The notes beneath the pieces are model-generated. The model was not told the origin of the DNA, made no database searches, and saw only the letters and a program-made list of their open reading frames with translations. Below are positions 1-52,916 of a stretch of 64,000 bases of DNA, one piece after another. The position numbers were made by a program, and so were the translations under genes. The DNA is from a virus (lineage: Duplodnaviria > Caudoviricetes): IMG/VR virus record IMGVR_UViG_2708742418_000007, positions 1,077 to 65,076 of that record. The stretch is one strand, 5' to 3'. Each line of letters opens with the position of its first letter. Within the stretch, counting starts at the first letter, position 1.

Positions 1-1356
1 AAACAGCGCCGCAAACCCGGCCGTGATAATGGGGATCGCGATGCCGAGAGCGCCGATTGCTCCCGCCGCGAGAATAGCGCCGCCACCGGCAACAAGAAGC
101 TGGCGTCCGAAGCCACCCGTTTCCTTGTTGAACGCGCGGAACGCATCCAGCGCCTTGCCGATACCCTCATTCAGCGTCGGAAGCCACTCGCCAAAGGACG
201 AGCCGATCTCATCGCTGATCTGCGACATGAGATCCTTGAAGATGGTAAGTTGCTTGTTCAAGCCCTGCATCTGGGTATTGGTATCGTTCCTCGTGGTCGA
301 TCCATCGGCCTTGGCGATCTCGTCGCGGATCGACTTGTACTTCTGCATGTTCGCCAGCATCGGGATCAGGAAGCCGTTCACCTGCATGTCCGAGAAAAGC
401 CCGCTCAGTGCGCCAGCGCCGGAAATGGCAGTCAGCTGTTTGCCCACCTGCTCAAGGGCGTCCGCGCCTTCAATGCCGTTATCCTTGGCCTTCTTCAGCA
501 TGGCTTCGACTTCGCTGCCGGATACACCCGTCAGCTTGGAAATCTTCTGAATGACCGCTTCAATCGGGCTGATGCCCTGGATCACGGCGTTCTGCATCAC
601 CGCCATGATGTCGACGTTCATCTTCTCGAAGTTCTTGATCGTCTCCTGCGATGTGATCTTCGACAGGAAATTATTGAGGTTGTTCGCCGCCTCCGCAGGG
701 TCGGAAGTACCCATGCGGGCAACCTGCAACATTGCGGCAAGCTGCGTTGTCGCACCCTGTCCAGTTACCCCGAGCTTCGCGACCTGTCCGGTCAGAACCG
801 GGAAATACTTCGCCATGTCCTTCAATTCGAAGGAGCCGAGCTTGCCACCCACAACGAGCTTGTCCATGGCCTGCCCCAACTCACCGGCCGGAACTTTCAA
901 GCTCTGCATCAGTGACGTGGCAACACTGGCGATATCCTTGATGTCGGCATTGGCGGCGGTCGCAGTGCGGGCAATGTTGCCGATGGATGCATCGACAAGG
1001 CTCTTGTCGAGACCGGCCGCGATCATCTGTCCGGCCGCGCCCGCGATGTCCTGCGAGGAAATCCCCACCTGCCGCGCAAGGTCCTGGTACATCCCCTTCA
1101 TCTCGGCAATGTTCTTGAAGGCCTCTTGCCCCACAAGGCCCTGTGTCACAGAAATATCGAGTAGCTTTTGCTGAAACGCCGCAGCGTCCTGGATAGGCCC
1201 CAAAAAGGAAAGTGCCCCGACCGCCGCACCGACCGCGCCGATCTTGCGGGCCACATCGGCAATACCACTCAAGGAGGCCTGCAAACGCCGCAGCGGCGAA
1301 CTCAGCAAGTCCTTGAGGCGGACGATCACGTCCAGGGCCATGTTGCGGTTTGCCAT
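1..1356 (-). CDS. Tail tape measure protein, paralogue of 16877..19030 (runs off the window)
   Basis: Missing from the ORF track; hand translation from ATG 1356 gives MANRNMALDVIVRLKDLLSSPLRRLQ...GTSDPAEAANNL...PIEAVIQKISKLTGVSG...FGEWLPTLNEGIGKA, collinear with the prophage TMP; open to base 1. Confidence 0.93.
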   Translation of the reverse strand, partial: MANRNMALDVIVRLKDLLSSPLRRLQASLSGIADVARKIGAVGAAVGALSFLGPIQDAAAFQQKLLDISVTQGLVGQEAFKNIAEMKGMYQDLARQVGISSQDIAGAAGQMIAAGLDKSLVDASIGNIARTATAANADIKDIASVATSLMQSLKVPAGELGQAMDKLVVGGKLGSFELKDMAKYFPVLTGQVAKLGVTGQGATTQLAAMLQVARMGTSDPAEAANNLNNFLSKITSQETIKNFEKMNVDIMAVMQNAVIQGISPIEAVIQKISKLTGVSGSEVEAMLKKAKDNGIEGADALEQVGKQLTAISGAGALSGLFSDMQVNGFLIPMLANMQKYKSIRDEIAKADGSTTRNDTNTQMQGLNKQLTIFKDLMSQISDEIGSSFGEWLPTLNEGIGKALDAFRAFNKETGGFGRQLLVAGGGAILAAGAIGALGIAIPIITAGFAALF

Positions 1357-1379
1357 GCGTCACCCTTTCCTTTGAAGAA

Positions 1380-1413
1380 GATGGCCCGGCGGTGGTGGAG
1401 CCGCCGGGCCATC
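1380..1413 (-). terminator. Strong hairpin between capsid and TMP genes (attenuator or RNA stabiliser)
   Basis: GATGGCCCGGCGG-8nt-CCGCCGGGCCATC, perfect 13-bp stem with a weak U tail on the minus strand. Confidence 0.45.
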
Positions 1414-1502
1414 CCAACCGCATCAAGTGCGGCCGATTTGCCCCCGCTCACCAACGAGGGCCTTGGATAGGGGCGCAACAGGAAACGCCCCCATCACATT
1501 CC

Positions 1503-2393
1503 TTAAATGTGATGGCTGACGATCAATTCCGCCGAGCGCGCCCAGGTGTTCGTTTCGCCGCCGTTCACCAGTTCGGCATTCAGCAGCGCGCGTGCTGGAT
1601 CCTCCAGATTTGGGGGAACGATCAGATGCGTCGGCGTGATGCCCATACGCTTGCCGTCCATCTTGCGCAGGTTCATCATGGAAAGCCGCGCGGAAATGTA
1701 GTTCGCCTTGTTCAAGGTTGACCTGGAGCAATGCGCCAACTGCCACAGGCCGAAGCCGGCATTGCAACGCCCGCGCACGCCATAGACATATTCGTCCTTC
1801 ATGAAGACGTAGGGATCGTTGGGAGCGGTGAGCGACTGAAGGTCGAAGCTCGTCCGCTCCTGGAAGAGCATCGGCTTCAACACCTGTCCGCAGTCCAGCA
1901 GATACCAGGCGTCGCCGTCTCCCGCCGTAAAGTTGGAAACGGAAATCTCTTCCTTGCTCTCGTTGTAGGCCTTGTGGTCCGTGTCGAAGAAATACTGCCC
2001 ATCATAGCATCGTTCGGACGTGCCGTCGCTCAGCAGTTCGAAGACCAGCTGATCCGGGAAAAGCGCCGTCTGTTCGCCAAGGCGCGCTGCCAGAGGGGAG
2101 AAAATGCCATAGGTATCATCTTCGATCTTCTCCCGCGGGATCGTGATCGTTTCCTCGAACTTCCGATTGACGACCGTGTACCGGGAGCGGGAAAGCGTAT
2201 GGAGAACGCGATCACCCAACCATTCGCGAATGCCCGGAAGATCGTCCAGCCAGGCGTAGGTTTCCTGACTGGTGGAAGACACGGTGCGCATGGCGACCAG
2301 GTCGAGATAGGTCTTGGGAGAGGCCTTCCCCTTGTTGAAGGCAACGTTGATGCCCGTGAAGAGGGAAGAAAGAGTGTTTGCGTTGATATCCAT
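1503..2393 (-). CDS. Mu-like major head subunit gpT, paralogue of 23864..24757
   Basis: MDINANTL start; LDDLPGIREWLGDRV, CYDGQYFFDTDH, YGVRGRCNAGFGLWQLA, NGGETN; 296 aa. Confidence 0.93.
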   Translation of the reverse strand: MDINANTLSSLFTGINVAFNKGKASPKTYLDLVAMRTVSSTSQETYAWLDDLPGIREWLGDRVLHTLSRSRYTVVNRKFEETITIPREKIEDDTYGIFSPLAARLGEQTALFPDQLVFELLSDGTSERCYDGQYFFDTDHKAYNESKEEISVSNFTAGDGDAWYLLDCGQVLKPMLFQERTSFDLQSLTAPNDPYVFMKDEYVYGVRGRCNAGFGLWQLAHCSRSTLNKANYISARLSMMNLRKMDGKRMGITPTHLIVPPNLEDPARALLNAELVNGGETNTWARSAELIVSHHI

Positions 2394-2446
2394 TTTGCCG
2401 CCCTGAGTGTCAATTGCTGACACCATGCGGCACATCAAGGTGGGAG

Positions 2447-2536
2447 TTCATGCCCATAACGGAGGGCATGAAACGGCATTCATCCTGAAAATCGCACGGA
2501 AGTCATCCGCTTTTCATGCCCGCGACTATGGGGTGT
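2447..2536 (-). promoter_or_regulatory. Two late-activator-type boxes (CATGCCC-N8-GGGCATG) upstream of the capsid paralogue
   Basis: TTCATGCCC-ataacgga-GGGCATGAA at 2447-2472 and CATGCCC-gcgactat-GGGGTGT at 2515-2536; the same motif precedes prophage late genes. Confidence 0.7.
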
Positions 2537-2598
2537 GCCGGGGGGCCGGAAATCGCCTGATCCCAATCCGCCTGTAGGCGGTCCTTCCTGGTCGGCAC
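2535..2598 (-). ncRNA. Putative structured small RNA, copy of the element at 26837..26900
   Basis: 56/64 gapless identity to the reverse complement of 26837-26900, with a compensatory change in the closing stem; strand inferred from the prophage copy. Confidence 0.6.
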
Positions 2599-2607
2599 CC
2601 CGCCAAA

Positions 2608-3111
2608 TTAACGCGGCATGTATCGATCGACCAGCGCGAATATGGTCTCTGCAATCATTGTCTCATCTTCCTTGGAAATTCCGAGATAGGGACGAGCGGG
2701 AATTGTCACGCTATCGGTTTTCACAAAATGGTCGCCAATTCTGAAAGCAAGGTGCGAAGCGATTTTCGGCTTGATCTCGCCACCAAACTGATGAATGGCA
2801 GCGTAAACCTTGTTAGGCCCAACCCGAACTTCGCTGGAAGATGCCCTGCTATTGATGCTGTCCCGAAGCAGGCCGCTTTCAACCAGGGTGTATGTTTTTG
2901 TCTTCGTCTCGGCATATTGCTTATTGAGTGCGGCCCAGGCGTTGCCGTCCGGATCGGTGCCGCTGATAAAACGCTGATGGGTTGAACCCACCAGCCCCGT
3001 GCCGATTGCTTTCATAACCGGCGTAGTATTGCGCATCACGCCTTCAAGTTGGCGGAACGCCGCTTGTACCTCCTTGTCCTGCACTGTCACCGAAAATGGC
3101 GCACCGGTCAT
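2608..3111 (-). CDS. Phage virion morphogenesis protein (Mu gpG-like), paralogue of 26283..26795
   Basis: LVESGLLRDSI, YAAIHQFG, IPARPYLGIS motifs. Confidence 0.92.
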   Translation of the reverse strand: MTGAPFSVTVQDKEVQAAFRQLEGVMRNTTPVMKAIGTGLVGSTHQRFISGTDPDGNAWAALNKQYAETKTKTYTLVESGLLRDSINSRASSSEVRVGPNKVYAAIHQFGGEIKPKIASHLAFRIGDHFVKTDSVTIPARPYLGISKEDETMIAETIFALVDRYMPR

Positions 3112-3128
3112 AGACTGATCTCCAAGCC

Positions 3129-3383
3129 TCAATTCGCAAGCGGTGGCTTCTCATGCCCGGCAAGGATCTGTTCCTCCGCCACCATGAGGCCAGACATTAT
3201 GTCGATCTTCGCTTTCGTAAAGCCCTCTGCCCGCTGTGGCGAAAGCTCGCCGCGCTCGATAAGCTTGTCGTCGGCAGCGCAATGCATTTGCAGCGCTTGT
3301 CCGCGCACCTGTACCAGGAAGACAAGCTGTTCCTTCGAAAGCGTGTTCAGGTCGATCTGCGTGTCCAAAACGATATCCCTCAA
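3129..3383 (-). CDS. Hypothetical protein
   Basis: Co-oriented ORF filling the gap between parB and gpG. Confidence 0.55.
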   Translation of the reverse strand: MRDIVLDTQIDLNTLSKEQLVFLVQVRGQALQMHCAADDKLIERGELSPQRAEGFTKAKIDIMSGLMVAEEQILAGHEKPPLAN

Positions 3384-3436
3384 ATTCGCCCGTCAGGCGC
3401 GTTTTTTAGTCCAGATGATGTGCGGCACCCAACAGG

Positions 3437-4825
3437 TCATAAAAATCCGCCTATGGGCTTTGAGGCGGCTTCGAAATCAATTTCCGAGCCGTAAACCTCA
3501 TCAATCTCATCAAGCATCTTCGCAACTTCCCAGGCAATTCTATCCAGATCTTCGTCTCGTTGCAGTTCAGAAATCACATACCGCTGCTGATCCTCGTCCA
3601 GACGGTGAATGTTTCGAACGATCCACCCTTCGGCGCGGTAACGCACCAGCAGCAGCGTTGCCAGTTCCTTCAGAACGCCCGACTTTTCGAGTGCCTTGAT
3701 TTTCTTTGTAACCCGCTTCTCCTCGGGAGACCGGGGCTTAGGCCCCGGCTTCGACTTACGGGATCTCTTCGCGTTTTCCTTTGCCACCTCAGCCTTGTGA
3801 CTTACCTTGAGGCTCCGCTCCATGTTGTTGATCGCATTGAGCGTGTAGTGGAGCTGCCGTGTCGTTTCTGCCTGTTTCCAGAGGCGCTGGTCTTCGACGC
3901 TGATGTGTTCGCGCAATGCCATGGGATCGGCGATCGCTGCCCACAGCTTCGACCGGTTGCGAGGCGACCTAACGCCGACCGTCACACTGAGGTGCGGCAT
4001 CACGTCAATCGGCTTCGGCATCGCGCCGATCTTCTCCAGCGCCGCAGCCCTGCGGTCTCGCGGCATGGCCTCCCAGGCGTCGCGAAACTGCTTCTCCCGC
4101 CAGTCTCCGGTTTCCATGCGGCCGGTCGGCTCGCGACCGGTTTCAGGGTCAGGCTCGCGCAGGACGGCTTCAAGGTCAGGGTTCTCGCGCAGTTTTGCGG
4201 CTATACGGTTCTGCTTTTCAGGTCCGAGCTTCGCCAGCTTGATCAAGCGTGTCTGATCATCGGCATAATCTGTGCCACGGATAGCGTCTCTCAGCGATTT
4301 TTCCAGAAGACGGATCGAGTAACGCCTACGACCCTCACGTTCGGAAATGCCGAATTTATCAAGTAAGTCTTTGTAGAAGCTTGGTTTTTTTGATAAATCT
4401 AAATCGGCATTAATCCGGCCATCTTGGCCGCTTTTCTTCCTGCGGCCCGGTTCTATCTTTCCAAAAGTTGCTTCCCACCATTCGCGATAGGCCGAAAAGT
4501 GTTCCGCCGCTTCGAGAGCGTTCAACTCCGACTGCGACAGATTGTCAGCGATGGCCAAACTAGAGGCTTCATCCTTGGTTCGCAAGAGCGCATTGATCGT
4601 GGGCCATCCCAGCTTTTGCGCTGCCCAAAGCCTCCTTGCGCCGTAAATCAGCGTAAACTGCTTCCTGTCTCCACGTGCGGTGCTCTTGTAAACGGCAATC
4701 GGCGTCTTCTGTCCGTCGCTCTCCATCTGGCGCATCAGAAGCATTGCAGCAGCCTCGTTATGCGGCCGGACATATCCATCCGGCACATGCACCAGATCAA
4801 CGGGTATCGCGATCACTTCAGCCAA
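3437..4825 (-). CDS. ParB-like protein with C-terminal extension, paralogue of 43770..44633
   Basis: YGARRLWA (GxxRxxA motif); WEATFGKIEPGR vs WEAKFGKVEPGR and RGTDYADDQ vs RGTPAADNQ in the prophage copy. Confidence 0.88.
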   Translation of the reverse strand: MAEVIAIPVDLVHVPDGYVRPHNEAAAMLLMRQMESDGQKTPIAVYKSTARGDRKQFTLIYGARRLWAAQKLGWPTINALLRTKDEASSLAIADNLSQSELNALEAAEHFSAYREWWEATFGKIEPGRRKKSGQDGRINADLDLSKKPSFYKDLLDKFGISEREGRRRYSIRLLEKSLRDAIRGTDYADDQTRLIKLAKLGPEKQNRIAAKLRENPDLEAVLREPDPETGREPTGRMETGDWREKQFRDAWEAMPRDRRAAALEKIGAMPKPIDVMPHLSVTVGVRSPRNRSKLWAAIADPMALREHISVEDQRLWKQAETTRQLHYTLNAINNMERSLKVSHKAEVAKENAKRSRKSKPGPKPRSPEEKRVTKKIKALEKSGVLKELATLLLVRYRAEGWIVRNIHRLDEDQQRYVISELQRDEDLDRIAWEVAKMLDEIDEVYGSEIDFEAASKPIGGFL

Positions 4826-4888
4826 ACCGCGTCATCTCCTGTGGTGGAAACTCCGCTAAGATGATTGCGGTCATCGGTTCCGATCCGG

Positions 4889-5083
4889 TCATTCTTCGCC
4901 TTTCGGAAACTCTCCGGACGCGGTGAGGAAGCCCTGTTCTTTTAGGTACTGGATCAAGAGCCCGTCCATGAGCGCAGCCAAAGACACACCAGCGTGCGCA
5001 GCAGCTCGTTCACCAGCCTTCTTTACTGTCGGCCTCATCCGCACTGCAAAGGCTTCTGATTTTCGCTCGTCCTCAAGCGCCAT
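4889..5083 (-). CDS. Ribbon-helix-helix-type small regulator
   Basis: KSEAFAVRMRPTVKKAGERAAAHAGVSLAALMDGLLIQYL fits the RHH beta-strand plus two helices pattern. Confidence 0.65.
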   Translation of the reverse strand: MALEDERKSEAFAVRMRPTVKKAGERAAAHAGVSLAALMDGLLIQYLKEQGFLTASGEFPKGEE

Positions 5084-5142
5084 TGTATAACACACCGTTG
5101 ACAAATCTTCGTTGTTAGATATGTATAACGGTGTTGAATACA
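5084..5142. promoter_or_regulatory. Divergent promoter/operator region
   Basis: Imperfect inverted repeat TGTATAACACACCGTT / AACGGTGTTGAATACA overlapping TTGACA (5098) and TATAAC (5124). Confidence 0.55.
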
Positions 5143-5212
5143 AAACTCAAGCGGCCCAAGCGGGTGTTACCAGCACCAGCGAGGGCCTAACCAAACGGCA
5201 AAGGAGGCCCTT

Positions 5213-5566
5213 ATGCCACAGGCTGCTTTCGCAGATAGCACAACTGCGCCCAAAGGTCAGCAGACCTTCCAACTCGATTTCGATGTGTTCATCGACACAT
5301 TGCGAGAACTGGAGGCTATCTGCTTCATGCTGGAAGGCGCGTTGAGCCAGACAGGCTTCATTCATCAGGATATCGTGGCCGGTATCCACGGTCTTATCCG
5401 TGGCCGCGTGGAGGATCTTCGCGTGATCTACGGTGACGCCATGGCGGATCGCGAGGCTTTTCAGCGGCTGTTGGCGATCCGGCAGACACGGTCAAAGCTG
5501 GATCAGGCCGGCTCGGTGCAGGATGCGAAACAGCCCTCCGCCTCCAAACAGGAGGCAAGCGCATGA
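5213..5566 (+). CDS. Hypothetical protein
   Basis: GGAGG RBS; ATGA overlap with the next ORF. Confidence 0.75.
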   Translation: MPQAAFADSTTAPKGQQTFQLDFDVFIDTLRELEAICFMLEGALSQTGFIHQDIVAGIHGLIRGRVEDLRVIYGDAMADREAFQRLLAIRQTRSKLDQAGSVQDAKQPSASKQEASA

Positions 5567-5880
5567 CTGCCACTCTGGACAAGAAGGAAATCGATCAGCT
5601 TCGCGAAGATCTGGAAGAGGGGATGGCGATGCTGAAAACCCTGGCCGAATGCTCCTGCCTCGCCCTCGATCATGGCGATGTTGACAGCAATTTCACCTTT
5701 GGTCTTTCCAGGCTGTTCGATGCCGCATTCCAGCGCCTGGACGGCACCGAAGCCGCCCTTCGCAAGATAAGCGGCGGCGCGGAGAAAATGGATCGCGCAC
5801 AGGCGGAGGAATGGGCGAGGGACAAGCTCACCTTCCTCCAGGACGAGCAGCGTGGCGCTGTCCAGTCGAAGAAAAAATAG
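5563..5880 (+). CDS. Hypothetical helical protein
   Basis: GGAGG RBS, coupled start, followed by a terminator. Confidence 0.75.
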   Translation: MTATLDKKEIDQLREDLEEGMAMLKTLAECSCLALDHGDVDSNFTFGLSRLFDAAFQRLDGTEAALRKISGGAEKMDRAQAEEWARDKLTFLQDEQRGAVQSKKK

Positions 5881-5900
5881 CATTTGTGTCCGGTATGGTC

Positions 5901-5932
5901 AGGGGCGCTGCGATCCGTCGCGGCGCCCTTTT
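5901..5932 (+). terminator. Rho-independent terminator
   Basis: GGGCGCTGCGA-tccg-TCGCGGCGCCC followed by TTTT. Confidence 0.7.
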
Positions 5933-6324
5933 CCATGCCAGTTTTCCGCTGCGCTTTCGTCATTCACTGCCGGTGATTTTTGAACAACCTTTGAGGCCTC
6001 ATCAACACCCGTTCGAAGGCCTCTGTCATGCGTTCCCTTGCCCGTCTTTCCCGCATCAAATACCCCGCCTCCAATGTCGTTCCGGCTTGGCTTCTTTGCT
6101 ACTGGAGGTTGCTCCGTTCGGATGCCGCCAGAGACTATGCGAAGGCGTGGATCATGCTGCCCCAGCGCTTGCCGCCGGGCGTCCCATGCCCCACAGTTGA
6201 TCAGATGGCTACTGCTCTTGTGGATCATAATTTGGTGGACCGTTAGCGCTCGACGGTGGAAAGTTCTTGCATGCTGCATTCACGCTCTATCCGACTGAAA
6301 ACACATGGTTTTACGCTGAAAAAG

Positions 6325-6710
6325 CGAACATGCCAGCGACTAGCAAGTTAGAATTGGATTTTTCTCGATTTTTTGCACGGTTTGAAGACTTTGCGGCGGA
6401 AATCCTCAAAGTCTGAAAAAGCCCGGAAATGCGGGCTTTTTTGTCCTTCCGTCTGGCCTTTAAAAGGCTTTTCAAAAGCCTCTCAAAGAGACTTTTAAAA
6501 ATGGCCCGAAGCCGCGTTTTTTGCGCAAATTTCGAGGCTTTTTTGTCAAAATGGCTTTTCCGCACAGCGCCGAAAACGGTCAAAAATATCCAGCAAAAAC
6601 ACATGCTTGGACGGAAAAAGACGCGAAATGACGAGAAATGACGGTTTTCCGGAAATCTATGTCAAACAACATCCGGAATTTTGACAGCCAAAACCGAAAA
6701 ATGGAATTTC
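6325..6710. repeat. Diverged direct copy of the prophage repressor-proximal end region (47485..47885)
   Basis: Collinear blocks at ~41.16-kb offset: GAATTGGATTTT, GCGGAAATCCTCAAA, AAAAAGCCCGG..CGGGCTTT, TGTCAAA, AATGACGG(G)TTTTCCGGA, TCCGGAATTTTGACA..AAAACCG. Confidence 0.85.
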
Positions 6711-6915
6711 CGGAAAGCCTGTCAAAATGTGCGTTTTGAGCGGCGTTCAAACGTCTTTCCAATACTTTTCAAAGCCGCTTCAAATTTACCGATTTCTCAA
6801 ACACCGCGCTAACCAAAAGCGGTCTTTGGTTTTGACGGTATCATCGGTCTCGGGCACCGTGAGGCTGAGATGCTGGCCCATCTCCAATCCCTTCAATGTG
6901 AAATGGAGAAGCAAG

Positions 6916-7764
6916 ATGGAGATCCCATCTTTTGGGCCAGCCGGACCTACCTTTGAGCAGGCAGCAGAGAGTTATCTCGCTCATGGCGGCGAGGCTCGGT
7001 ACATTCCGCCAATCGTCGCCTATTTTGCCGGCCGGCCTCTGACATCGATCCACCCGTTCGATATCCGCAAAATGGCGGAAAGCATTTACCCCGCGCACAG
7101 CAATGCCACACGCAACAGGCAGGCCATCACACCGGCAAGAGCTGTCATGATGCACGGCTATGACCGTGGGTGGTGCCCGCTCATTCGCGTGCGGCGTTTC
7201 AAGCAAGACCGACCGGCTCGGCCGAAACCAGCGTCGCCGGTCTGGCTGCATGCCTTCGCCAGGCAGTGCGACAAGGATGGCTTGCCCCATGTGGCGGCCG
7301 TAGTGCTCTTCATGGCTCAAAGCGGCGCGCGGATCAGCGAGGCGATTGCGCTGCGGTGGTCCGAGGTAGACCTGAATGCTCGCACGGCCCTGTTGCTCAA
7401 GACAAAGACGTCGACCAACTCCGTGCGGTTTTTGACAGACGAGGTTGCTGCACGGCTCCGGGACCTGCGCGGCACTGCCAAAGGCAGCGACAGGGTTTTC
7501 CGATACACCTCGCGCCACAGCGTCAATGAGCGCATCCGGGCCGTCTGTGGTCGGGCCGGCATCCCGCACAAGCCGCCGCATACATGCGGGCGACACACCT
7601 TTGCCACGCGCGCGATCGAGCTTGGAATGGATGTGCGCACCACAATGGCGGCAGGCGACTGGCGATCCTCGTCAGTCTTTCTGGAGACCTATGTGCATCC
7701 ACGGCTGAATGCCGGACGCCTGGTCGCCGATCGCTTTGCTATGGATGCTTTCGACGAAATCTGA
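6916..7764 (+). CDS. Tyrosine recombinase/integrase lacking an arm-binding domain
   Basis: GARISEA (R), KTKT (K), HTCGRH, GDW, ETY catalytic pattern; GGAG RBS before ATG 6916. Confidence 0.9.
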   Translation: MEIPSFGPAGPTFEQAAESYLAHGGEARYIPPIVAYFAGRPLTSIHPFDIRKMAESIYPAHSNATRNRQAITPARAVMMHGYDRGWCPLIRVRRFKQDRPARPKPASPVWLHAFARQCDKDGLPHVAAVVLFMAQSGARISEAIALRWSEVDLNARTALLLKTKTSTNSVRFLTDEVAARLRDLRGTAKGSDRVFRYTSRHSVNERIRAVCGRAGIPHKPPHTCGRHTFATRAIELGMDVRTTMAAGDWRSSSVFLETYVHPRLNAGRLVADRFAMDAFDEI

Positions 7765-7833
7765 TGCGGTTTTCAAAGAGCTGCCGGCAGACGCATTTTC
7801 GGGCTGCCGGCACGTACAGATGATGATGGGGCG

Positions 7834-9795
7834 TCACGACACCCGCAGATTGCCTGCCAGCACGTAGTCGCGGATCACCTTGCCGATTTCGATATGCGCC
7901 CATGTGCTGTCATGAGCGGCATCAATCGCAGCAACAAACGTGATTTCGTAGGCATCGCCCACGGCTGGCGTTGCAGACCAGCCAGCATCGACGTTGATGG
8001 TGCCATCCGCTCGCGTATAAAAGACAACACCGGCCGCTGTGTTCGCAGCGGCTCCGGTCGTAAACCGGATGGAATAGCCCTTGTACAGGTCAGCCACCCA
8101 GCCAGCCTTGCTGCTGTCAATGAATTCATACTTGGCAGTGACACCCGTCAGAGTACCGGTAATGCTTGGCCGTCCGGCCGGCACGATGACATAGCCACCA
8201 TCCAATGTCTTGACATTGGAGGCATTGACCTCGACAGCACTGCATGTCTCGATCACGCCGGTCAGATCGAAATATCCGCTCTCCTGACGAAATCCGCTCG
8301 GTCCCGTATCGCGCAGCCATGCATTGATTTGCAGACGGGTGGCCTCGGTCGAGACTTTTGTCTGACCGGCTACAGTGGTCCATGCGTCGGTGGTGTTTGT
8401 CGACGGCGGCAGCGTCATCTGATGCCACTTGATGCCGCGCGGCGCATACCAGCTAACCGCCTTTAGCAGATTGGCCCGGAACGTCGCGAAGCCCAGCCCT
8501 TTGTCGTTGTTGCCGTAGTTGGAAATGATGTTGTTAGCCAACTCGGCAAGCCGGTTCCGGGTGCGATCGCGCACAGAGCTGGCGAGCGAATTGACGAAAT
8601 CATCCAGCTTTTCACCGCCGAGACCCATGGGGATATAGCCGCACAGCGGTGTCGTCTGGTCCTGCATTTTGAGGTCCAGCCGGTTCGTGATGCCACGAAC
8701 GATGAAGCCTCCCTCACCGTAGCCGACACCTCCATCTCCGGTGCCAGCCCCCTTGCTGTCCGCAACGATGGCAACAGACGCACACGGACGCTTGGGGCGG
8801 CCAAGAATTGTGAGCGGGGTATAGATGTTATTGGGCGATGCCGACACATCTAGCGTGGCGCCTGGGATAGTGCGGTCGCCGAGACTGGCGACCTCCCCGA
8901 CATCGCGGATACCTCCGCCCGATGCACGCCCTGCTGCGCCGCCGATCAGCCGCGTGCGAGCGCCAGCGGTCTGCTCGCGGATAATCGTTTTCGGCTGCCC
9001 GATTGCGGCAAGCCCCTCCTGGCACGCCTTGGCATAATTTGCCTGTACGCCAGTTGTCGCATTGCGCGATCCGATGCAAACGCGGTACGCAATGGCCCCG
9101 GGATAAGCCGCTGGCGACGTGACGGTGATGGAGCCGGTGCTAGCTCCAGCCGGGATAGTCGCCACCGATCCTGCCGACAGAAGGCTCTCGCTTCCGTCTG
9201 CAAAAATGTAGCAGACTGAAATCAGATAGCTGGCACCCGCCGCCAGCGCCCCACCCGTACCAGAGGCCGATACAGCAGGCGCATCCGGCGCTGGGGCGGC
9301 AAACGTGTCGCTGGCTGTTTTGGTATAGAACCGCTCTCCTTTGGAGAGAGGCAGGAAAACCGGGTCAGAAAAAAGCACGCAACCGGGATCGACACGTGCA
9401 CGCCGCGACCCGTTGAAAGCGACCGGCACCGTGTGGCCGTCATTGGCAGTCTCAGTGCTGCCAAGCTTGTCCATCGCAGCGGTCACATTGATGGGGCTAT
9501 AACCAGCCTCCATGATGCCGGGAGACGCCGTGCCGTAATTGGCATACACGAGGATGAAGTTGCTGCAGTCAACCGCAAGCGTGTGCTTCTTGCGATATGA
9601 TACCTGATTGAGCTGAGTGTTTTGCGGAGAGTTGTTGCTGCTGAGGGCAGTCCCTCCCGACGCGACAGGCTGATATCCAGCCTGTCGAAGCGCATCGAGT
9701 GAAGCCACCCCGCTGGCGGCCAGCGCCTCGACGATATCCGCAACTTCCGCAGCGTCATATTGAGCGTCTTCCGGATTTATTTCGATCTTTGCCAT
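7834..9795 (-). CDS. Tail spike/fibre-associated protein with SGNH esterase-like domain
   Basis: VADS, YGNND and DAAH SGNH blocks; start MAKIEINP at 9795. Confidence 0.7.
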   Translation of the reverse strand: MAKIEINPEDAQYDAAEVADIVEALAASGVASLDALRQAGYQPVASGGTALSSNNSPQNTQLNQVSYRKKHTLAVDCSNFILVYANYGTASPGIMEAGYSPINVTAAMDKLGSTETANDGHTVPVAFNGSRRARVDPGCVLFSDPVFLPLSKGERFYTKTASDTFAAPAPDAPAVSASGTGGALAAGASYLISVCYIFADGSESLLSAGSVATIPAGASTGSITVTSPAAYPGAIAYRVCIGSRNATTGVQANYAKACQEGLAAIGQPKTIIREQTAGARTRLIGGAAGRASGGGIRDVGEVASLGDRTIPGATLDVSASPNNIYTPLTILGRPKRPCASVAIVADSKGAGTGDGGVGYGEGGFIVRGITNRLDLKMQDQTTPLCGYIPMGLGGEKLDDFVNSLASSVRDRTRNRLAELANNIISNYGNNDKGLGFATFRANLLKAVSWYAPRGIKWHQMTLPPSTNTTDAWTTVAGQTKVSTEATRLQINAWLRDTGPSGFRQESGYFDLTGVIETCSAVEVNASNVKTLDGGYVIVPAGRPSITGTLTGVTAKYEFIDSSKAGWVADLYKGYSIRFTTGAAANTAAGVVFYTRADGTINVDAGWSATPAVGDAYEITFVAAIDAAHDSTWAHIEIGKVIRDYVLAGNLRVS

Positions 9796-9992
9796 TACGA
9801 TGCTGCCTTTGTGAAAACGATGTATTTGCCGGCAAAAGCCAGCGCGGATCCGGCAAAAGCCAGAGCGCCATTGGGGGCACCACCACCCTCGTCGAGGGTG
9901 AGGCCGGCAGCCCTGGACGTCGCGATGCCTCGCAGCAGCGGCCGATCCGCATACCCGATCAGCCGGGGAAGCTTGGTTTGAAGCCTGCTCAT
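9795..9992 (-). CDS. Hypothetical protein
   Basis: Overlapping stop/start coupling with both neighbours. Confidence 0.6.
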   Translation of the reverse strand: MSRLQTKLPRLIGYADRPLLRGIATSRAAGLTLDEGGGAPNGALAFAGSALAFAGKYIVFTKAAS

Positions 9993-10258
9993 ACGCTGCT
10001 CCAGGCCTTCGCCGAATTGCCGGCCGTGTTGCCGCGCACGTCGATCCGAACAAACGGGAACGGCGCATAGCGGCCAATGCGCTCATTGGCGCCAAGGCTG
10101 TCGATGACTTGCCAGACGGCACCAGCATCCACGCGGGCCAGCACATCAAAAACGGTCTGGTCCGCTCCACCGTCAACCTGCACAAAGAAAATCTCGGCCG
10201 GCGAAAAAGATGTGCCCTGTGCAGAGGCAGCGGTCGTATCCAAGCGAAGAGGCATCAA
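9989..10258 (-). CDS. Hypothetical protein
   Basis: AAAGGA RBS; coupled to the downstream gene. Confidence 0.65.
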   Translation of the reverse strand: MMPLRLDTTAASAQGTSFSPAEIFFVQVDGGADQTVFDVLARVDAGAVWQVIDSLGANERIGRYAPFPFVRIDVRGNTAGNSAKAWSSV

Positions 10259-26832: not shown

Positions 26833-26904
26833 TGACGCGCCGACCAGGAAGGACTGCCTTCAGGCGGCTTGGGATCAAGCGTTTTCCGGCTCCCCGGCGC
26901 GTCA
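26833..26904 (+). ncRNA. Putative structured small RNA convergent on the muF 3' end
   Basis: Perfect 10-bp terminal stem TGACGCGCCG/CGGCGCGTCA, internal hairpin, own promoter, second copy at 2535-2598. Confidence 0.65.
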
Positions 26905-34650: not shown

Positions 34651-35022
34651 CTAGAGAAGCTGCATTTGGCGGCTATCTTTGGGCTTTTTGCCTTTCCCAG
34701 GCTTCCGTTTTCTCGCCCGCTGGAAAAGCAGTTCCACGCCGGTTTCCGTCAGGCCTAATCTGCGGGCAACATCCTTGTTGCTCACACCCGCTTCGCGGTA
34801 TCGCAAGGCGCGGAACTCGCGCGCCAGCGGAACTTTTATATATCCGCCTCTGTAGAGATTGGAAAGCCTCCATGCTGCATCCTCGCCGACGGTCTGCGGC
34901 AGATCCGATCGGGCAGGATCGGCCGGGACATAGAGGCGCATGCCAGCATGCGCCTCAACAAGGGCAAAGAAGCCATCCTCGCCGAGCGCATCAAGCAGCT
35001 CCTGTACCAGATCCTCGCTCAT
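34651..35022 (-). CDS. Mor/C-family late transcription activator
   Basis: HAGMRLYVP, YRGGYIKVP, C-terminal HTH; immediately upstream of the lysis genes. Confidence 0.8.
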   Translation of the reverse strand: MSEDLVQELLDALGEDGFFALVEAHAGMRLYVPADPARSDLPQTVGEDAAWRLSNLYRGGYIKVPLAREFRALRYREAGVSNKDVARRLGLTETGVELLFQRARKRKPGKGKKPKDSRQMQLL

Positions 35023-47381: not shown

Positions 47382-47509
47382 AACATGGAAGAAACCCGTC
47401 TTTTTCAATGACGACTTCCATGTTGGAAAAGAGCGAAGGCTTATTGTAACCCACTGAATTCTAATTGTTTTGTCGGCAGTGAGCGCAACATGGAAGTGAC
47501 TTCCATGTT
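47382..47509. repeat. Two inverted pairs of AACATGGAAG
   Basis: 47382-91/47415-24 and 47487-96/47500-09, all exact. Confidence 0.85.
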
Positions 47510-47890
47510 CGAATTGGATTTTCGTGTCAAAAATGGCGCCATTCCGCACGGGGCTGCGGAAATCCTCAAAATGTAAAAAGCCCGGTTTTCCGGGCTTTCA
47601 CAACCGTTTCAAAGCCCTTCAAACGGTTTTCAAAACCGCCTCGAACCTTTCGCCGGAACCACCGATAAAACGCGCCGCAGCGGCCACTACTATCCGTTTC
47701 CGTGTCAAACGCGCCTGCCATCTCCGCCCGTTTGATACCGCGAAAAGCCCTTGTATTTCAGCCCATTGCCACGAATTGCCGCGATTTGACGGACAATGAC
47801 GGGTTTTCCGGATAACGGTGACTGACAACAAGCTTGACGCGGATTTCCGGAATTTTGACACCTAAAACCGGAAAAACGGAAATCTCATAT
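47485..47890. repeat. Prophage repressor-proximal end region with candidate transposase-binding repeats
   Basis: Tandem TCCGG-N8-GTCAA sites on the minus strand at 47835-47872; homologous to 6325-6710. Confidence 0.65.
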
Positions 47891-48009: not shown

Positions 48010-49257
48010 CTATCTCTTGAAAGACCAAAGTCTGCCCTGACGGTTCAACGAAATGGAATCAGACCAGGAGGGGGTAGGCACACGCTTTTCAGAATTATTT
48101 GTATTCCGGAGGTCGAGTTCTTTTTCACTGACTAGAAACGAGGTGACATCGGCGATGTCAACCAATCGCGCGGGTGTCTCGTTAGCAATAGACTTAACGA
48201 AGACTTCATAGGACAGCCTCTCGTCTCGATGACGTTCGTGCAGGCGCTTAAGGAAGTCTTCCGCCAATCGCTCCCGCATCAGTTCCTTGTCGGCTCGGCC
48301 GAAGAGAAAATCTGGAGCATTTTGAGGATCGGCATTTGGATTAAAACCCAGCATCTCCAACCCGCCATGCCCCAAATGCAATGATTGATTGTTTATCTCC
48401 CAATGGCTATCGACCATGACGTTACGTGCCTTTACATGGTGCGATAGGTGGAGCAGCCAAAGATCCTTACGAGCTTTTTTTGATCGCAGGAAGAAGGGGC
48501 TTAGGAAAGGCGCGCCAGTCTGCTGCATAATATGTCTAAGCAGCAAGCGCTGAATTACATATCGTCCGCCCCGTTCGCCTTTCACATGAAGAAATTCTTT
48601 CAGCTGCTCCGCCGAGATCTCTATTGGCGCTAATCGTCGCAGGACTTCCGGATCTGTTGAGAGATAATCAATTAGCCATCCGACTGCGAATGTCAGAATG
48701 CACTCCGCGGCAGAAAATCTCAGGATTTTCCTGACGATTTCGAGGTCTACGTCGGAGTATCCCAATTGATCGAGAAGAAAAATAGAACGACCGACCTGGC
48801 GTCGGGTCCTCATCTCTATGCGAGATGAAATCAGGGGAAATACGTCTTCAAATTTCGAGTGATGTATGAATATCGACCGTCCGATTTTCGAAGAGTGCCC
48901 GTGGGCGTGCAATTCAGCCCGAAGGAAATCAATATGGTTCTTTTCACTGTCAACGAAGTGAAATTCAGCGTCAATTTCTAGCTTGTGATTCCTTCCTTGA
49001 TTCGCCTGCCGTTCTGCTGCATCCACCGCGTCGAGGAATAGTAGAGGCGTGCCTTTCACAAATTGCCCGTCGCGTAGAAAACGACCACCGCCGCAGAATC
49101 CGTCAACCAGTGTAATTCGTTGCCGCCGTTGTGCAGGACTGACCAAAATGGCGGGGAAGTAGCCCTCTAGATAAGCCGCAATCAACCTCAGTTTCGCGTC
49201 GCTATGATCTTCTAGCGAGGGAGGCGCCGCGCCCGGTTTCCAGCCAAACGTCTTAAT
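48010..49257 (-). CDS. tcmP: Three-Cys-motif partner protein (methyltransferase-like)
   Basis: HSDAKL..YL, VDGFCGGG, FLLDQLGYS; frame open to 49278; ATT start inferred. Confidence 0.85.
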   Translation of the reverse strand: MKTFGWKPGAAPPSLEDHSDAKLRLIAAYLEGYFPAILVSPAQRRQRITLVDGFCGGGRFLRDGQFVKGTPLLFLDAVDAAERQANQGRNHKLEIDAEFHFVDSEKNHIDFLRAELHAHGHSSKIGRSIFIHHSKFEDVFPLISSRIEMRTRRQVGRSIFLLDQLGYSDVDLEIVRKILRFSAAECILTFAVGWLIDYLSTDPEVLRRLAPIEISAEQLKEFLHVKGERGGRYVIQRLLLRHIMQQTGAPFLSPFFLRSKKARKDLWLLHLSHHVKARNVMVDSHWEINNQSLHLGHGGLEMLGFNPNADPQNAPDFLFGRADKELMRERLAEDFLKRLHERHRDERLSYEVFVKSIANETPARLVDIADVTSFLVSEKELDLRNTNNSEKRVPTPSWSDSISLNRQGRLWSFKR

Positions 49258-49309
49258 TGTTGTAACTCCTGCCGATACTCAGACAGTGAGTTGTGTAGTC
49301 ATTGATTCG

Positions 49310-50146
49310 TCAAGCGCGAAGCTTGAACTGACTTTCTTTTTCTGCGGGAAACTCACGTATTAATTCACCGTCCAGCAAGCCTCCTCCTTTTCCAAACTGG
49401 TCTAGTTCCTTAACCAAAGACGCGGGAAGTCCTTGTTCCTGCACTAAGGGATTGTTTGTCGCTGCGCCCCATTGCTTATGGAATGGCGCGACGCCAAATT
49501 TCCTGCAGTCGGCGACGATGTCTCGTGCCCACTGTGCCATCATCGGACGCGCGCCATGGCCGCTTTCGCCGCCGCTGATAAGCCAATCCGGTTTGGGATC
49601 GCTTTCTGACAATCGCAGAGGGCCGATAGCGGGTTCGTACGAAACGAACCAGACTGCGGCAGGAATATCCGCGATGAAGCGTTTCCTTTGGTCAAAGCGA
49701 GTTTGATCTTCTGCGGTGAAGCCCAACCAAACATTCGGGTAACCGGAAGCCCCCCAGTCTGCCGGCAGCATCTTTTTGATGTTTTGAGGGCGCTTGGTGA
49801 GCAGCTGCCAGTCGAGCGCCGGCGTCGCTCGAATGACCTCAAACAAGTCCTTTCGCCACGCCGGGTCCGCCTGGTTGTCGAATACATCGGCTAGAGATGC
49901 GCAAAAGACGCGCTGTCTTCTGCCGTGCAGGGCTGCAAACTGAGCCGCCTTCTGCTGCCAGATATGAGGCGCTTTCCAGTACGCATCAGTTGTTTTCTTG
50001 CGAGGAGAATTGCCCCATTTCACGTGGCCCGATCGTTTTGACCATGCTTCGGCATAGCAGTTGTCGCAGCCTGGGCTGATATTGGTACAGCCCGTCCAAG
50101 GGTTAAACGTGTGGTCGGTCCACTCAATTGTAGAATTCATGGCCAT
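49310..50146 (-). CDS. DUF5131 / phage Gp37-Gp68 three-Cys protein
   Basis: IEWTDHTFNPWTGCTNISPGCDNCYA, LLTKRP, SYEP, GGESG, FHKQWG. Confidence 0.93.
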   Translation of the reverse strand: MAMNSTIEWTDHTFNPWTGCTNISPGCDNCYAEAWSKRSGHVKWGNSPRKKTTDAYWKAPHIWQQKAAQFAALHGRRQRVFCASLADVFDNQADPAWRKDLFEVIRATPALDWQLLTKRPQNIKKMLPADWGASGYPNVWLGFTAEDQTRFDQRKRFIADIPAAVWFVSYEPAIGPLRLSESDPKPDWLISGGESGHGARPMMAQWARDIVADCRKFGVAPFHKQWGAATNNPLVQEQGLPASLVKELDQFGKGGGLLDGELIREFPAEKESQFKLRA

Positions 50147-50351
50147 CGCACGTCTCCCTGTCATAAATCGACCCATGGTACATTCAGAGAACATGCTTGC
50201 CAAATGATTAACATTGGCCATAGTTGCGCAGATTATGAGCTTGGTACGGTGCTGTCATTAGCCTTGACGCCTCGAGCTTTATGAGGCAGTTCTCAGCGCC
50301 CCGAAGGCGGCGGGTGCCTGAACCAAATGACCGAATGCGGCCGGTCCGAAC

Positions 50352-50669
50352 ATGGAGATTCGGATGCCCCATTCGCGCGGCCCGCAGCGTCCCAATAACA
50401 GTAAAGCAGAACCACGCTTCAGCTCGCCTTACCTGTCAGACTTTCTCGGCGGCAAGGTTCATCTGATTTGCCCAAAATGCGGCATCCAGCGTCGATACGA
50501 CGCCTCAATGTTATTGGCCAAAGTCGGGGATTACGTCCTGCCGGATCTGCTCACCCGAATTGCGTTGGCCGAAGGGTGCCCGCGTGTCGGAGACAAGGAC
50601 GACCGATGTAATCTGCACTACGATATCGAAAAGATGTACGAACAGAGGAGCGCCAAGCATGGCCAGTGA
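50352..50669 (+). CDS. Small Cys-rich hypothetical protein
   Basis: CPKCG..RRYD..LPDLL..GCP..C. Confidence 0.7.
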   Translation: MEIRMPHSRGPQRPNNSKAEPRFSSPYLSDFLGGKVHLICPKCGIQRRYDASMLLAKVGDYVLPDLLTRIALAEGCPRVGDKDDRCNLHYDIEKMYEQRSAKHGQ

Positions 50670-50835
50670 CAACACCGGCGCGTCCGGGGCGGCAGTCCAT
50701 TTCGAGCATTACTGTCAGGCGCCAGGCTGCAAGAAGTGGGGATCCTTCGGTTACCCGTCCCCACGCGGGCGTGGCGAATCGGATTTCTATTGCTTCGCGC
50801 ATCGGCCGGACAAGGCCGAGGGTGTTACGCAGTAG
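50659..50835 (+). CDS. Small zinc-finger-like protein
   Basis: GAGGAG RBS; HYCQAPGCKKWGSFG..YCFAH. Confidence 0.65.
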   Translation: MASDNTGASGAAVHFEHYCQAPGCKKWGSFGYPSPRGRGESDFYCFAHRPDKAEGVTQ

Positions 50836-50844
50836 CGAACTTGC

Positions 50845-51000
50845 TCAATGACGCGTCGTTGGCGGCCCCAGCAAACGCGTCTGCTCTTCTGCTTCAAGAA
50901 TGGCCATTGCAATGAGATAGACCAGAAGCGGCAGTTCGGCTTTCTCGGCGCGGGCTTTTGCCGCTTCGAGTTGCGCGAGGATCTCCCTCAGGTCGTTCAT
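50845..51000 (-). CDS. Small hypothetical protein
   Basis: LLVYLIAMAILEA motif; GGGGG RBS. Confidence 0.55.
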   Translation of the reverse strand: MNDLREILAQLEAAKARAEKAELPLLVYLIAMAILEAEEQTRLLGPPTTRH

Positions 51001-51109
51001 AGGCGCCCCCCATTCACCCGAACCAACGCCGCGACGGTAGCGTGAAAGCCGCCATCTGAACAAGATCGAAGGGGCCTCGAAGCGGTCTCAAAGCCCCTTC
51101 AAACACCCT

Positions 51110-52743: not shown

Positions 52744-52916
52744 GTGCAGACCACCTTGATCTTGCAGGCCTTCAGCGCCTGCAAGGCCACGAACAGCTGC
52801 TGTTGGGCCTGCTCGTCCGAGCAGACGAGAATGACGCCGTGTTGCTGACGGTGGACGTGGCCGTTGGCGCCCGGTGCGCCGCGTGGCAGGGGAGGGAGCT
52901 TATCGCTGGATTTCAT
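52740..52916 (-). CDS. Small protein coupled to the ABC-GNAT gene
   Basis: GVILVCSDEQAQQQLF; ATGA overlap. Confidence 0.6.
   Translation of the reverse strand: MKSSDKLPPLPRGAPGANGHVHRQQHGVILVCSDEQAQQQLFVALQALKACKIKVVCT

What the first reader, a model, noticed from the sequence alone, without database searches (positions are those of the whole stretch)
1..6710. Candidate satellite ('mini-Mu') built from the neighbour's capsid, tape measure, gpG and ParB genes and its cis-signals
Seen: four uninterrupted genes are diverged paralogues of genes in the adjacent prophage (TMP 16877, gpT 23864, gpG 26283, ParB 43770). They are packed together without any of the genes that separate them in the phage. 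Four kinds of non-coding phage element are also kept (late boxes, 64-nt RNA, central tract, end region), two of them inverted or relocated. The repressor/ner switch is replaced by an unrelated RHH switch. Established: known satellite families (P4, PICI, cf-PICI, PLE) are integrase-based; I know of no natural satellite family of transposable phages. Inference: this is a selected non-autonomous element. It may be copied by the helper's MuA/MuB and remodel helper virions, or it may act as a decoy defence that poisons Mu-like assembly with variant subunits.
Basis: partly seen in the sequence, partly recalled or inferred. Interest (0 to 1): 0.92.

Follow-up and report, generated by a model that had tools for sequence, protein, structure and literature searches.

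The report
Transposase-less mini-Mu satellite beside its helper
A compact phage-derived element keeps a Mu-type DNA end, regulators and its own capsid, tail-ruler and tail-completion genes but has no transposase, and it sits inside the end of a full Mu-like prophage, so it is most likely a parasite of that phage that moves by borrowing its transposase.

Summary
On the minus strand lie intact genes for a ParB-like protein, gpG, the major head protein gpT and a full-length 731-aa tape measure. They are 33-65% identical to the neighbouring prophage's copies, and none of the phage's intervening genes is present.

New here:
- The element ends in a Mu-type left terminus at 6671. This terminus abuts the neighbour's right end, which has lost its last 18 nt.
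- The tyrosine recombinase at 6727-7764 therefore lies in the neighbour, not in the element.
- The element continues left of the record into a Mor-like gene. Its right end could not be seen.
- Relatives with the same regulator-ParB-(protease)-gpT-tape measure-Mor layout occur in other genomes and metagenomes. They have both Mu-type ends and no transposase. One has a 5-bp target duplication.
- Capsid genes in two related compact elements show dN/dS of 0.08-0.10.
- This lineage, full phages included, inserts into resident right ends next to tRNA-Met, which explains the three-element stack.

Best reading: a non-autonomous Mu-type satellite mobilised in trans. Virion remodelling or interference is inferred, not shown. 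Four literature searches found no description of such satellites. Earlier notes of this scan describe similar elements on other DNA.

The parts
1..1356 (-). Tape measure protein, N-terminal 452 codons in the window. The whole gene is record 237-2432, 731 aa.
   Evidence: PF10145 and phrog_794. It is 65% identical to the prophage TMP over 453 aa and has the same last 11 residues.
1503..2438 (-). Major head protein gpT. The likely start is the ATG at 2393.
   Evidence: PF10124, E 2.5e-112. 50% identical to the prophage gpT. Keeps 46 of 47 universally invariant positions.
2449..2470 (.). Palindromic box CATGCCC-N8-GGGCATG, 56 nt upstream of the gpT start.
   Evidence: The same exact box lies upstream of the prophage TMP (19088) and in loci L011, L012, L019 and L091.
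2537..2596 (.). 60-nt structured element. It is an inverted copy of the prophage's gpF/gpG intergenic element.
   Evidence: 90% identity to 26839-26898, reversed. Partial copies sit at the same gpF/gpG position in L009, L006 and L019. The fold z-score is -2.8 for the phage copy and -1.0 for this copy.
2608..3132 (-). gpG-like virion morphogenesis / tail completion protein.
   Evidence: PF05069, E 1e-36, and phrog_26. 56% identical to the prophage gpG.
3129..3383 (-). 84-aa ORF of unknown function.
   Evidence: Open frame with high third-position GC. No family hit.
3437..4825 (-). ParB-like protein, 462 aa.
   Evidence: phrog_3264, E 4e-37. 33% identical to the prophage ParB. 41-46% identical to the ParB of compact relatives L084, L085/L086, L026 and L027.
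4889..5143 (-). 84-aa first gene of the leftward operon, probably a ribbon-helix-helix protein.
   Evidence: Aligns with the second RHH unit of the L084/L086 proteins. The L084 protein matches RHH_5 at E 1e-7. No direct Pfam hit.
5213..5880 (+). Two overlapping divergent regulator-side ORFs of 117 and 105 aa.
   Evidence: Homologues stand in the same divergent position in L084 (48%), L027 (41%), L086 and L087. The longer L027/L084 forms have weak C-terminal HTH matches.
6028..6246 (+). Conserved 72-aa ORF.
   Evidence: 51% tblastx match to L086 and a match to L087. Translations.
6325..6671 (-). Mu-type left-end region. The terminus at 6671 reads TGTTGTTTGACA on the minus strand.
   Evidence: Collinear with the prophage left end 47485-47830. 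The terminus motif is shared with 10 other left ends. The first site is of the same type as in the prophage and L087.
6672..6771 (-). Right end of the neighbouring prophage, lacking its last 18 nt. It abuts the element's left terminus and is not part of the element.
   Evidence: Alignment of 11 right ends. 6672-6676 would be the 5-bp target copy.

Best explanation
Window 1-6671, continuing left of the record, is a transposase-less miniature Mu-type element. It is a satellite of Mu-like transposable phages.

What it keeps:
- A Mu-type left end whose first binding-site type matches that of the adjacent full prophage.
- A divergent regulatory switch.
- A ParB-like gene and a Mor-like late activator.
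- Variant copies of gpG, gpT and the tape measure.

Shown:
- The gene content and its integrity.
- The left terminus and its junction with the neighbour's truncated right end.
- Related compact elements with both ends and no transposase.
- A 5-bp target duplication in one relative.
- Purifying selection in compact relatives.

Inferred mechanism:
- A helper's MuA/MuB recognise the element's ends and transpose and replicate it in trans.
- It landed in the helper's right end because this lineage targets resident right ends beside tRNA-Met. The insertion also cuts off the helper's own terminus.
- Late in infection its Mor-like activator and the shared palindromic box drive gpT, gpG and the tape measure.
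- These proteins enter or compete in helper virion assembly. An element of about 8-9 kb would fit a smaller head.
For: Gene content and paralogy. No MuA/MuB, portal or terminase is in the visible 7.7 kb. The only PF02914 hit in the record is the prophage's A gene.

Left end:
- The left terminus TGTTGT..GAC is shared by 11 left ends.
- The next about 45 nt are 75% identical to the prophage's left end. They are of a type seen only in the element, the prophage and L087 among those 11.
- The junction is with a right end that lacks 18 nt.

Relatives:
- L085/L086: regulators, RHH, ParB, gpI, gpT, TMP.
- L087: the same without ParB, followed by Mor and a right end.
- L084: 7.3 kb, both ends, and the 5-bp repeat ACGGA on both sides.
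- L026/L027: 9.4-9.7 kb, both ends.
- L091.

Census:
- 110 loci have a gpT hit.
- 61 of them have portal or terminase.
- 22 lack both despite flanks of at least 7 kb and 3 kb.
- 13 of those 22 also lack MuA/B.

The two Allorhizobium genomes with compact elements have one gpT each and no PF02914 hit. The same search rang in the window's record.

Selection:
- dN/dS between L026 and L027 is gpT 0.083, gpI 0.10, ParB 0.14 and regulator 0.24.
- dN/dS for gpT between L014 and L017 is 0.04.
- The window's gpT keeps 46 of 47 invariant positions.

Right-end targeting:
- Full prophages in three Rhizobium genomes show the left junction ...GCGTCCGGC|TGTTGT.
- Their right junction is ...GGCTACA|CCGGC|TACA, followed 33-49 nt later by tRNA-Met.

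The palindromic box is shared with phage late genes.
Against: - The element's right end and its own target duplication are outside the record, so its completeness and mobility are not shown.
- It has gpG where all relatives have the protease/scaffold gpI. No other locus has gpG directly before gpT. It may therefore be a damaged member of the family.
- Its closest gpT relatives are only 62-63% identical, and their context could not be fetched.
- L087 and L026 have no matching 5-bp repeats on their two sides.
- No data on expression, packaging or interference exist.
- Compact elements occur in genomes without any Mu transposase. That also fits a domesticated function.
Confidence: 0.65

Rival explanations
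1. An immobile remnant of an old Mu-like prophage. Three internal deletions happened to leave whole genes, and the remnant has no function today.
For: - Gene order is collinear with a full phage (ParB > gpG > gpT > TMP > ...).
- gpI, which every compact relative has, is missing.
- The 60-nt element between gpG and gpT is inverted, as after a rearrangement.
- gpT sits on a long branch of 0.66.
- No near-identical copy was found elsewhere.
Against: - All ORFs are intact, including a 731-aa tape measure.
- gpT keeps 46 of 47 invariant positions.
- The left terminus and its sites are intact.
- The same compact layout recurs with both ends and under purifying selection.
Confidence: 0.15
2. A domesticated interference or decoy island. 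The host keeps variant capsid, tail-completion and tape-measure subunits, under a phage-responsive switch, to poison assembly of infecting Mu-like phages. The island does not itself spread.
For: - Compact gpT elements persist under purifying selection in two genomes with no Mu transposase.
- Relatives carry defence-type cargo: an OLD-family nuclease in L027 and a reverse transcriptase beside L091.
- The tape measure keeps the N-terminal domain and C-terminal tail that should dock in the neighbour's tail.
Against: - Mu-type ends are conserved, and one relative has a target duplication. An immobile host gene set would not be expected to keep these.
- 0 of 10 proteins match PADLOC models.
- Satellites commonly interfere with helpers as well, so this is not exclusive of the best explanation.
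Confidence: 0.12
3. An integrase-based island of PICI/P4 type that uses the divergent tyrosine recombinase at 6727-7764.
For: An integrase-family gene (PF00589, E 3e-19) lies 56 nt beyond the element and is divergently oriented, as in PICIs.
Against: - The Mu-type terminus at 6671 and the neighbour's right-end sequence lie between the recombinase and the element.
- The recombinase query hit only L036 among the loci compared with the window's proteins, and none of the compact relatives.
- Its DNA homologues in two other genomes are not beside Mu-end motifs.
- No tRNA gene was found in the window.
Confidence: 0.03

Closest known systems
Engineered mini-Mu / mini-D3112 elements packaged by a helper ('mini-Muduction'). 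Recalled knowledge; PMC8705779 mentions engineered mini-Mu's (passages seen).
   Same: Mu ends without a transposase gene. Transposition, replication and packaging would depend on a helper phage.
   Different: This element is natural, recurrent and diversified. It carries its own regulators, ParB, Mor and structural genes, and it appears to insert at resident right ends and not at random.
Capsid-forming PICIs (cf-PICIs) and other phage satellites (P4, SaPI/PICI, PLE). Recalled knowledge; review PMC6893505 seen only in a search listing.
   Same: A small element with a partial set of virion genes that would need a helper for the rest. It has its own capsid protein, and defence cargo occurs in relatives.
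   Different: It has no integrase, primase/replicase or small terminase of its own. Its ends are Mu-type with a 5-bp duplication (seen in a relative). It carries a tape measure and a tail-completion gene, which those families do not typically have.
Tn7-like elements stacked at an attachment site. Recalled knowledge; PMC10293859 seen in a search listing only.
   Same: Relatives of the MuA/MuB machinery insert in one orientation at one site beside a conserved gene, which builds tandem arrays.
   Different: Here the fixed point is the resident right end itself. Distances to tRNA-Met vary (33, 45 and 49 nt) while the cut site in the old end stays constant. No TnsD- or CRISPR-type selector was identified.

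Membership tests
Non-autonomous Mu-type transposable element (natural 'mini-Mu') | 5'-TG terminus followed by transposase-site repeats like those of a full Mu-like phage | tested here: met
   The terminus at 6671 reads TGTTGTTTGACA. The next about 45 nt are 75% identical to the prophage left end.
Non-autonomous Mu-type transposable element (natural 'mini-Mu') | A second, inverted end that finishes in ...CA | not testable with these tools
Relatives L084, L087, L026 and L027 have such an end.
Non-autonomous Mu-type transposable element (natural 'mini-Mu') | 5-bp target-site duplication | not testable with these tools
   Only one side can be seen (candidate copy at 6672-6676). It is met in relative L084 (ACGGA) and in three full prophages (CCGGC). 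It is not met in L087 or L026.
Non-autonomous Mu-type transposable element (natural 'mini-Mu') | No transposase of its own | tested here: met
   No MuA/B in the visible 7.7 kb. The only PF02914 hit in the record is the prophage's gene. The unseen left part is not excluded.
Phage satellite (general) | Lacks genes needed to make a particle and depends on a helper | tested here: inconclusive
   The lack of portal, terminase, protease, sheath, tube, baseplate and lysis genes is shown. Dependence on a helper and packaging are untested.
PICI / cf-PICI / P4 / PLE | Own integrase and att sites, plus own replication or packaging-redirection genes | tested here: not met
   The recombinase lies beyond the Mu-type terminus and is not conserved in relatives. 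No primase, rep or small terminase was found.
Decaying prophage | Truncated or interrupted genes and loss of conserved residues | tested here: not met
   All ORFs are open. gpT keeps 46 of 47 invariant positions.

The most novel reading that the evidence does not exclude
A new class of phage satellite that has no integrase and no transposase. It is moved and copied by the helper's MuA/MuB, and it homes into the helper's own right end beside tRNA-Met, which cuts off the helper's terminus and cripples it. It then uses its own capsid protein, tail-completion protein and tape measure, together with borrowed parts, to build particles sized for an 8-9 kb genome.
Probability: 0.4. Interest if true: 0.9.

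Novelty: new variant of a known kind. Interest (0 to 1): 0.8.

Why it matters
All described satellite families integrate with their own recombinase. A natural satellite that rides on a helper's transposition machinery would be a new way of parasitising a phage. It would also be a natural counterpart of the laboratory mini-Mu.

The linked finding is that this rhizobial Mu-like lineage inserts into resident right ends next to tRNA-Met. That runs against the textbook picture of near-random Mu insertion with target immunity near Mu ends. It also explains why prophages and satellites stack at one locus.

Both points can be tested directly in a cultivable rhizobial host.

Tried and rejected
Left flank:
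- The record holds only 1076 nt more than the window.
- A Logan contig of 94,639 nt covers the stretch and runs 60 kb further left, but its letters cannot be read here.

Close relatives of the element's gpT:
- The genome scan gave at best 53% identity.
- The metagenome scan gave at best 55%.
- The protein database gave three proteins at 62-63%, with no accession or context.

Other negative or uninformative results:
- Rfam: two matches in 1-8000, both far below the gathering scores.
- PADLOC: 0 of 10 proteins matched.
- PDB sequence search of the 84-aa protein: nothing meaningful.
- Sequencing runs: one DNA holder, probably the source; no RNA holder listed.
- The tblastx overview was mostly noise, and I used only the strong rows.
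- The careful tree did not finish, so the quick IQ-TREE tree and a FastTree tree were used. Roots are midpoints only.

Ideas rejected:
- The right-end-like sequence upstream of the left ends as an integrase att core. The two copies differ at scattered positions, and the right junction reads end + 5-bp repeat + leftover 4 nt.
- tRNA distance as the targeting cue. The spacers are 33, 45 and 49 nt long and unrelated in sequence.
- The 'central tract', which was not significant.

dN/dS of the element against the prophage copies was not computed because synonymous sites are saturated at 50-65% protein identity. Supplementary files of papers were not consulted.


Full report
WHAT IS THERE. The window is positions 1077-65076 of a 65,076-nt provirus record. 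On the minus strand of window 1-6671 lie intact ORFs:
- A tape measure of 731 aa, running from window 1356 to record position 237.
- gpT at 1503-2438.
- gpG at 2608-3132.
- An 84-aa ORF at 3129-3383.
- A ParB-like protein of 462 aa at 3437-4825.
- An 84-aa probable ribbon-helix-helix protein at 4889-5143.

Three ORFs are read divergently on the plus strand: 5213-5566, 5563-5880 and 6028-6246.

Identities to the neighbouring prophage's copies are:
- Tape measure 65% over the first 453 aa. The last 11 residues are identical and the middle does not align.
- gpT 50%, gpG 56% and ParB 33%.

The neighbour is a full Mu-like myovirus. It has a MuA with four Mu transposase domains, a MuB, terminase, portal, gpF, gpI, sheath, baseplate J and an S24-type repressor.

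Record positions 120 to 1 on the minus strand encode the N-terminus of a Mor-like activator, 76% identical in DNA to the prophage's Mor at 34680-35022. The gene string is therefore ParB-84aa-gpG-gpT-TMP-Mor, and it continues beyond the record.

CIS ELEMENTS.
- The palindromic box CATGCCC-N8-GGGCATG is far more frequent than chance: 5 matches with up to 2 mismatches against 0.81 expected, and 0 of 100 shuffles reached 5.
- One perfect copy lies 56 nt before the element's gpT. Another lies 58 nt before the prophage tape measure.
- Exact copies sit before the tape measure or gpI genes of related phages and in compact locus L091.
- One prophage copy lies only 5 nt from a start codon. The box may therefore be an RNA hairpin and not an activator site; which it is remains open.
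- The 60-nt segment 2537-2596 is a 90% identical inverted copy of the prophage's gpF/gpG intergenic element. Parts of it occur at that same position in three related phages. Its function is unknown.
- The proposed 'central tract' was not significant.

ENDS.
- Comparison with related loci defines a shared left terminus, TGTTGTYWGWCA, in 11 elements.
- In the window it occurs at 6671 for the element and at 47830 for the prophage, both read on the minus strand.
- The about 45 nt after the terminus are 75% identical between element and prophage. They are of a type seen otherwise only in L087. Eight other left ends carry a different first site. This points to a matching transposase.
- Right ends of relatives share ...TTCCG-N-TGTCAAAATTCCG-(17-18 nt)-GCTACA.
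- Directly beyond the element's terminus (6672 onward) is such a right end lacking its last 18 nt.
- Directly beyond the prophage's left terminus (47831 onward) is another right end lacking 3 nt. It belongs to a third prophage with siphovirus tail genes.
- The three elements therefore lie head to tail, each inserted in the right end of the previous one.
- The tyrosine recombinase at 6727-7764 lies inside the middle prophage, not in the element. The recombinase query hit none of the compact relatives. Its homologues elsewhere are not beside Mu-end motifs.

RELATIVES. Loci with the same compact layout were found:
- L085/L086 are one element seen on two metagenome contigs, 100% identical in the three genes compared. 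It has the divergent regulators, RHH, ParB (46%), gpI, gpT (55%) and a 750-aa tape measure.
- L087 has the regulators, RHH, gpI, gpT, a tape measure split into two ORFs, and Mor. Its left end is at 5453 and its right end at 14281, which gives 8.8 kb.
- L084 is 7.3 kb, from its left end at 88 to its right end at 7377.
  - It has ACGGA on both sides.
  - It encodes a regulator, RHH, ParB (44%), Mor, a protease-only gpI and a major head protein of another PHROG.
- L026 and L027 come from two Allorhizobium genomes. They carry a regulator, ParB (42%), two small ORFs, gpI and gpT. L027 also has an OLD-family nuclease.
- L091 has a Mu-type DNA-binding-domain protein, a Mor-like protein, gpI, gpT and an 820-aa tape measure, next to a reverse transcriptase.
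- None of these gave a MuA, MuB, portal or terminase hit.

A profile-based census covered 110 loci with a gpT hit:
- 61 have portal or terminase.
- 27 have flanks too short to judge.
- 22 lack both despite flanks of at least 7 kb upstream and 3 kb downstream.
- Of those 22, 9 carry their own MuA (most also MuB) and 13 carry neither.

The two Allorhizobium genomes hold exactly one gpT each and no PF02914 match. The same search found the prophage's A gene in the window's record. The 14 control genomes did not ring, so the absence rests on that single positive control.

SELECTION AND PHYLOGENY.
- Between L026 and L027, dN/dS is 0.083 for gpT, 0.10 for gpI, 0.14 for ParB, 0.20 for a 187-aa ORF and 0.24 for the regulator.
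- Between L014 and L017, gpT gives 0.04.
- The window's gpT keeps 46 of 47 positions invariant in 23 full-phage gpTs. It keeps 68 of 82 positions invariant in its 17 nearest full-phage relatives. Distant functional phage gpTs keep 56-65 of the 82.
- In a quick IQ-TREE tree of 82 rows, the element's gpT is sister (aLRT 100) to the rhizobial full-phage clade that contains the neighbour's gpT, on a branch of 0.66. Other compact loci cluster in separate groups: 7 label changes against a shuffled mean of 18.1, and 0 of 500 shuffles as low.
- With the metagenome loci and three database proteins at 62-63% identity added, a FastTree places the element's gpT with those three proteins. L085, L087 and L089 branch just outside.
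- Both trees are midpoint-rooted and quick, so the order of events is not established.

RIGHT-END TARGETING.
- In three Rhizobium genomes the full prophage is bracketed in the same way.
- On the left is an older right end cut after ...GCGTCCGGC, then TGTTGT.
- On the right is ...GCGTCCGGCTACA, then CCGGC, then TACA.
- This is a perfect 5-bp duplication 4 nt from the old terminus, plus the displaced 4 nt.
- A tRNA-Met(CAT) gene follows after 33, 45 or 49 unrelated nucleotides.
- ARAGORN found that tRNA beside the right end in 5 of the 10 loci scanned: L135, L136, L131, L027 and L026. It found none in L084, L087, L130, L132 or L133. L132 and L133 are left junctions.
- Of the eight left ends examined, four abut a right end: the element, the prophage, L084 and L027.
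- L087 and L026 show no matching 5-bp repeats. Recombination between stacked copies could explain this, but that is inference.

HOW IT MOST LIKELY WORKS. Shown:
- The element has the helper-type left end and no transposase.
- Family members have both ends, and one has a Mu-type duplication.
- Family capsid genes are kept by selection.

Inferred:
- A helper's MuA/MuB mobilise and replicate the element.
- Its insertion removed the last 18 nt of the neighbour's right end. That should stop the neighbour from transposing with its own ends while leaving it able to supply proteins.
- The element's Mor and the shared box time expression of its gpT, gpG and tape measure.
- The tape measure keeps both termini of the neighbour's protein and nearly the same length (731 against 717 aa), so it should fit the same tail.
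- From L087, the element is probably about 8.4 kb. That is a fifth of the 41.2-kb neighbour and would suit a smaller head. This size argument is arithmetic, not evidence.
- The element lacks gpI, which all relatives keep, so it may rely on the helper's protease/scaffold or be a damaged copy.

COMPARISON AND NOVELTY.
- It works like a laboratory mini-Mu combined with a capsid-encoding satellite.
- It is not a member of the P4, PICI, cf-PICI or PLE families, because it has no integrase, att sites or replication module of its own.
- Four full-text searches listed no paper describing a natural satellite of transposable phages or right-end-targeted Mu-like insertion.
- I read passages only of PMC4936722 and PMC8705779. 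Neither describes such an element.
- Earlier notes of this scan, which are unchecked AI notes, report similar transposase-less or miniature Mu-type capsid-bearing elements on other DNA. I treat them as agreement, not as evidence.

VERDICT.
- Confidence in the satellite reading is 0.65.
- Novelty is a new variant of a known kind.
- Interest is 0.8.

Noticed in passing
L132/L135 (G009), L133/L136 (G005), L131 (G008); window 47826-47835 and 6667-6676: Full Mu-like prophages of this rhizobial lineage are inserted into an older right end 3-4 nt from its terminus, with a perfect 5-bp repeat (CCGGC), next to tRNA-Met(CAT). This is targeted insertion, not random, and is the opposite of Mu target immunity.
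   Followed up: partly
window 1-64000: Three Mu-related elements are stacked head to tail in one orientation: a siphovirus-type prophage (from 47831 rightwards), a myovirus-type prophage (6672-47830) and the mini element (up to 6671). Each insertion truncated the right end of the previous element, by 3 nt and by 18 nt.
   Followed up: partly
window 6727-10185: At the myovirus prophage's right end lie a tyrosine recombinase and a convergent 783-aa protein with an SGNH/lysophospholipase-like region (phrog_8480), just after the tail-fibre genes. This could be a fibre-switching recombinase or cargo. It was not examined further.
   Followed up: no
L014, L022, L034, L038, L055, L073, L095, L101, L112: Nine compact gpT loci have no portal or terminase but carry their own MuA (most also MuB). 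This looks like a second, autonomous kind of miniature Mu-like element.
   Followed up: no
L027 3002-5068; L091 3070-4689: Compact relatives carry or adjoin defence-type genes: an OLD-family ATPase/TOPRIM nuclease and a reverse transcriptase.
   Followed up: no
L027 about 1761-1780; L130 about 1500-1570: The junctions between stacked ends hold a (TACA)5 microsatellite in L027 and a tandem duplication of a 34-nt right-terminal unit in G011.
   Followed up: no
window 48010-53085: The third prophage's right arm holds DUF5131, a 391-aa protein with a weak GMT-wHTH match, an ABC-ATPase-like protein and a formyltransferase-like protein. This is the subject of another first-reader note.
   Followed up: no
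L001 2811-2840 and 3060-3085 (window 1735-1764, 1984-2009): A second Logan contig of the same run (48.9 kb, depth 180 against 117) matches two short pieces of the element's gpT with one mismatch each. The same sample may therefore hold another related gpT gene.
   Followed up: no
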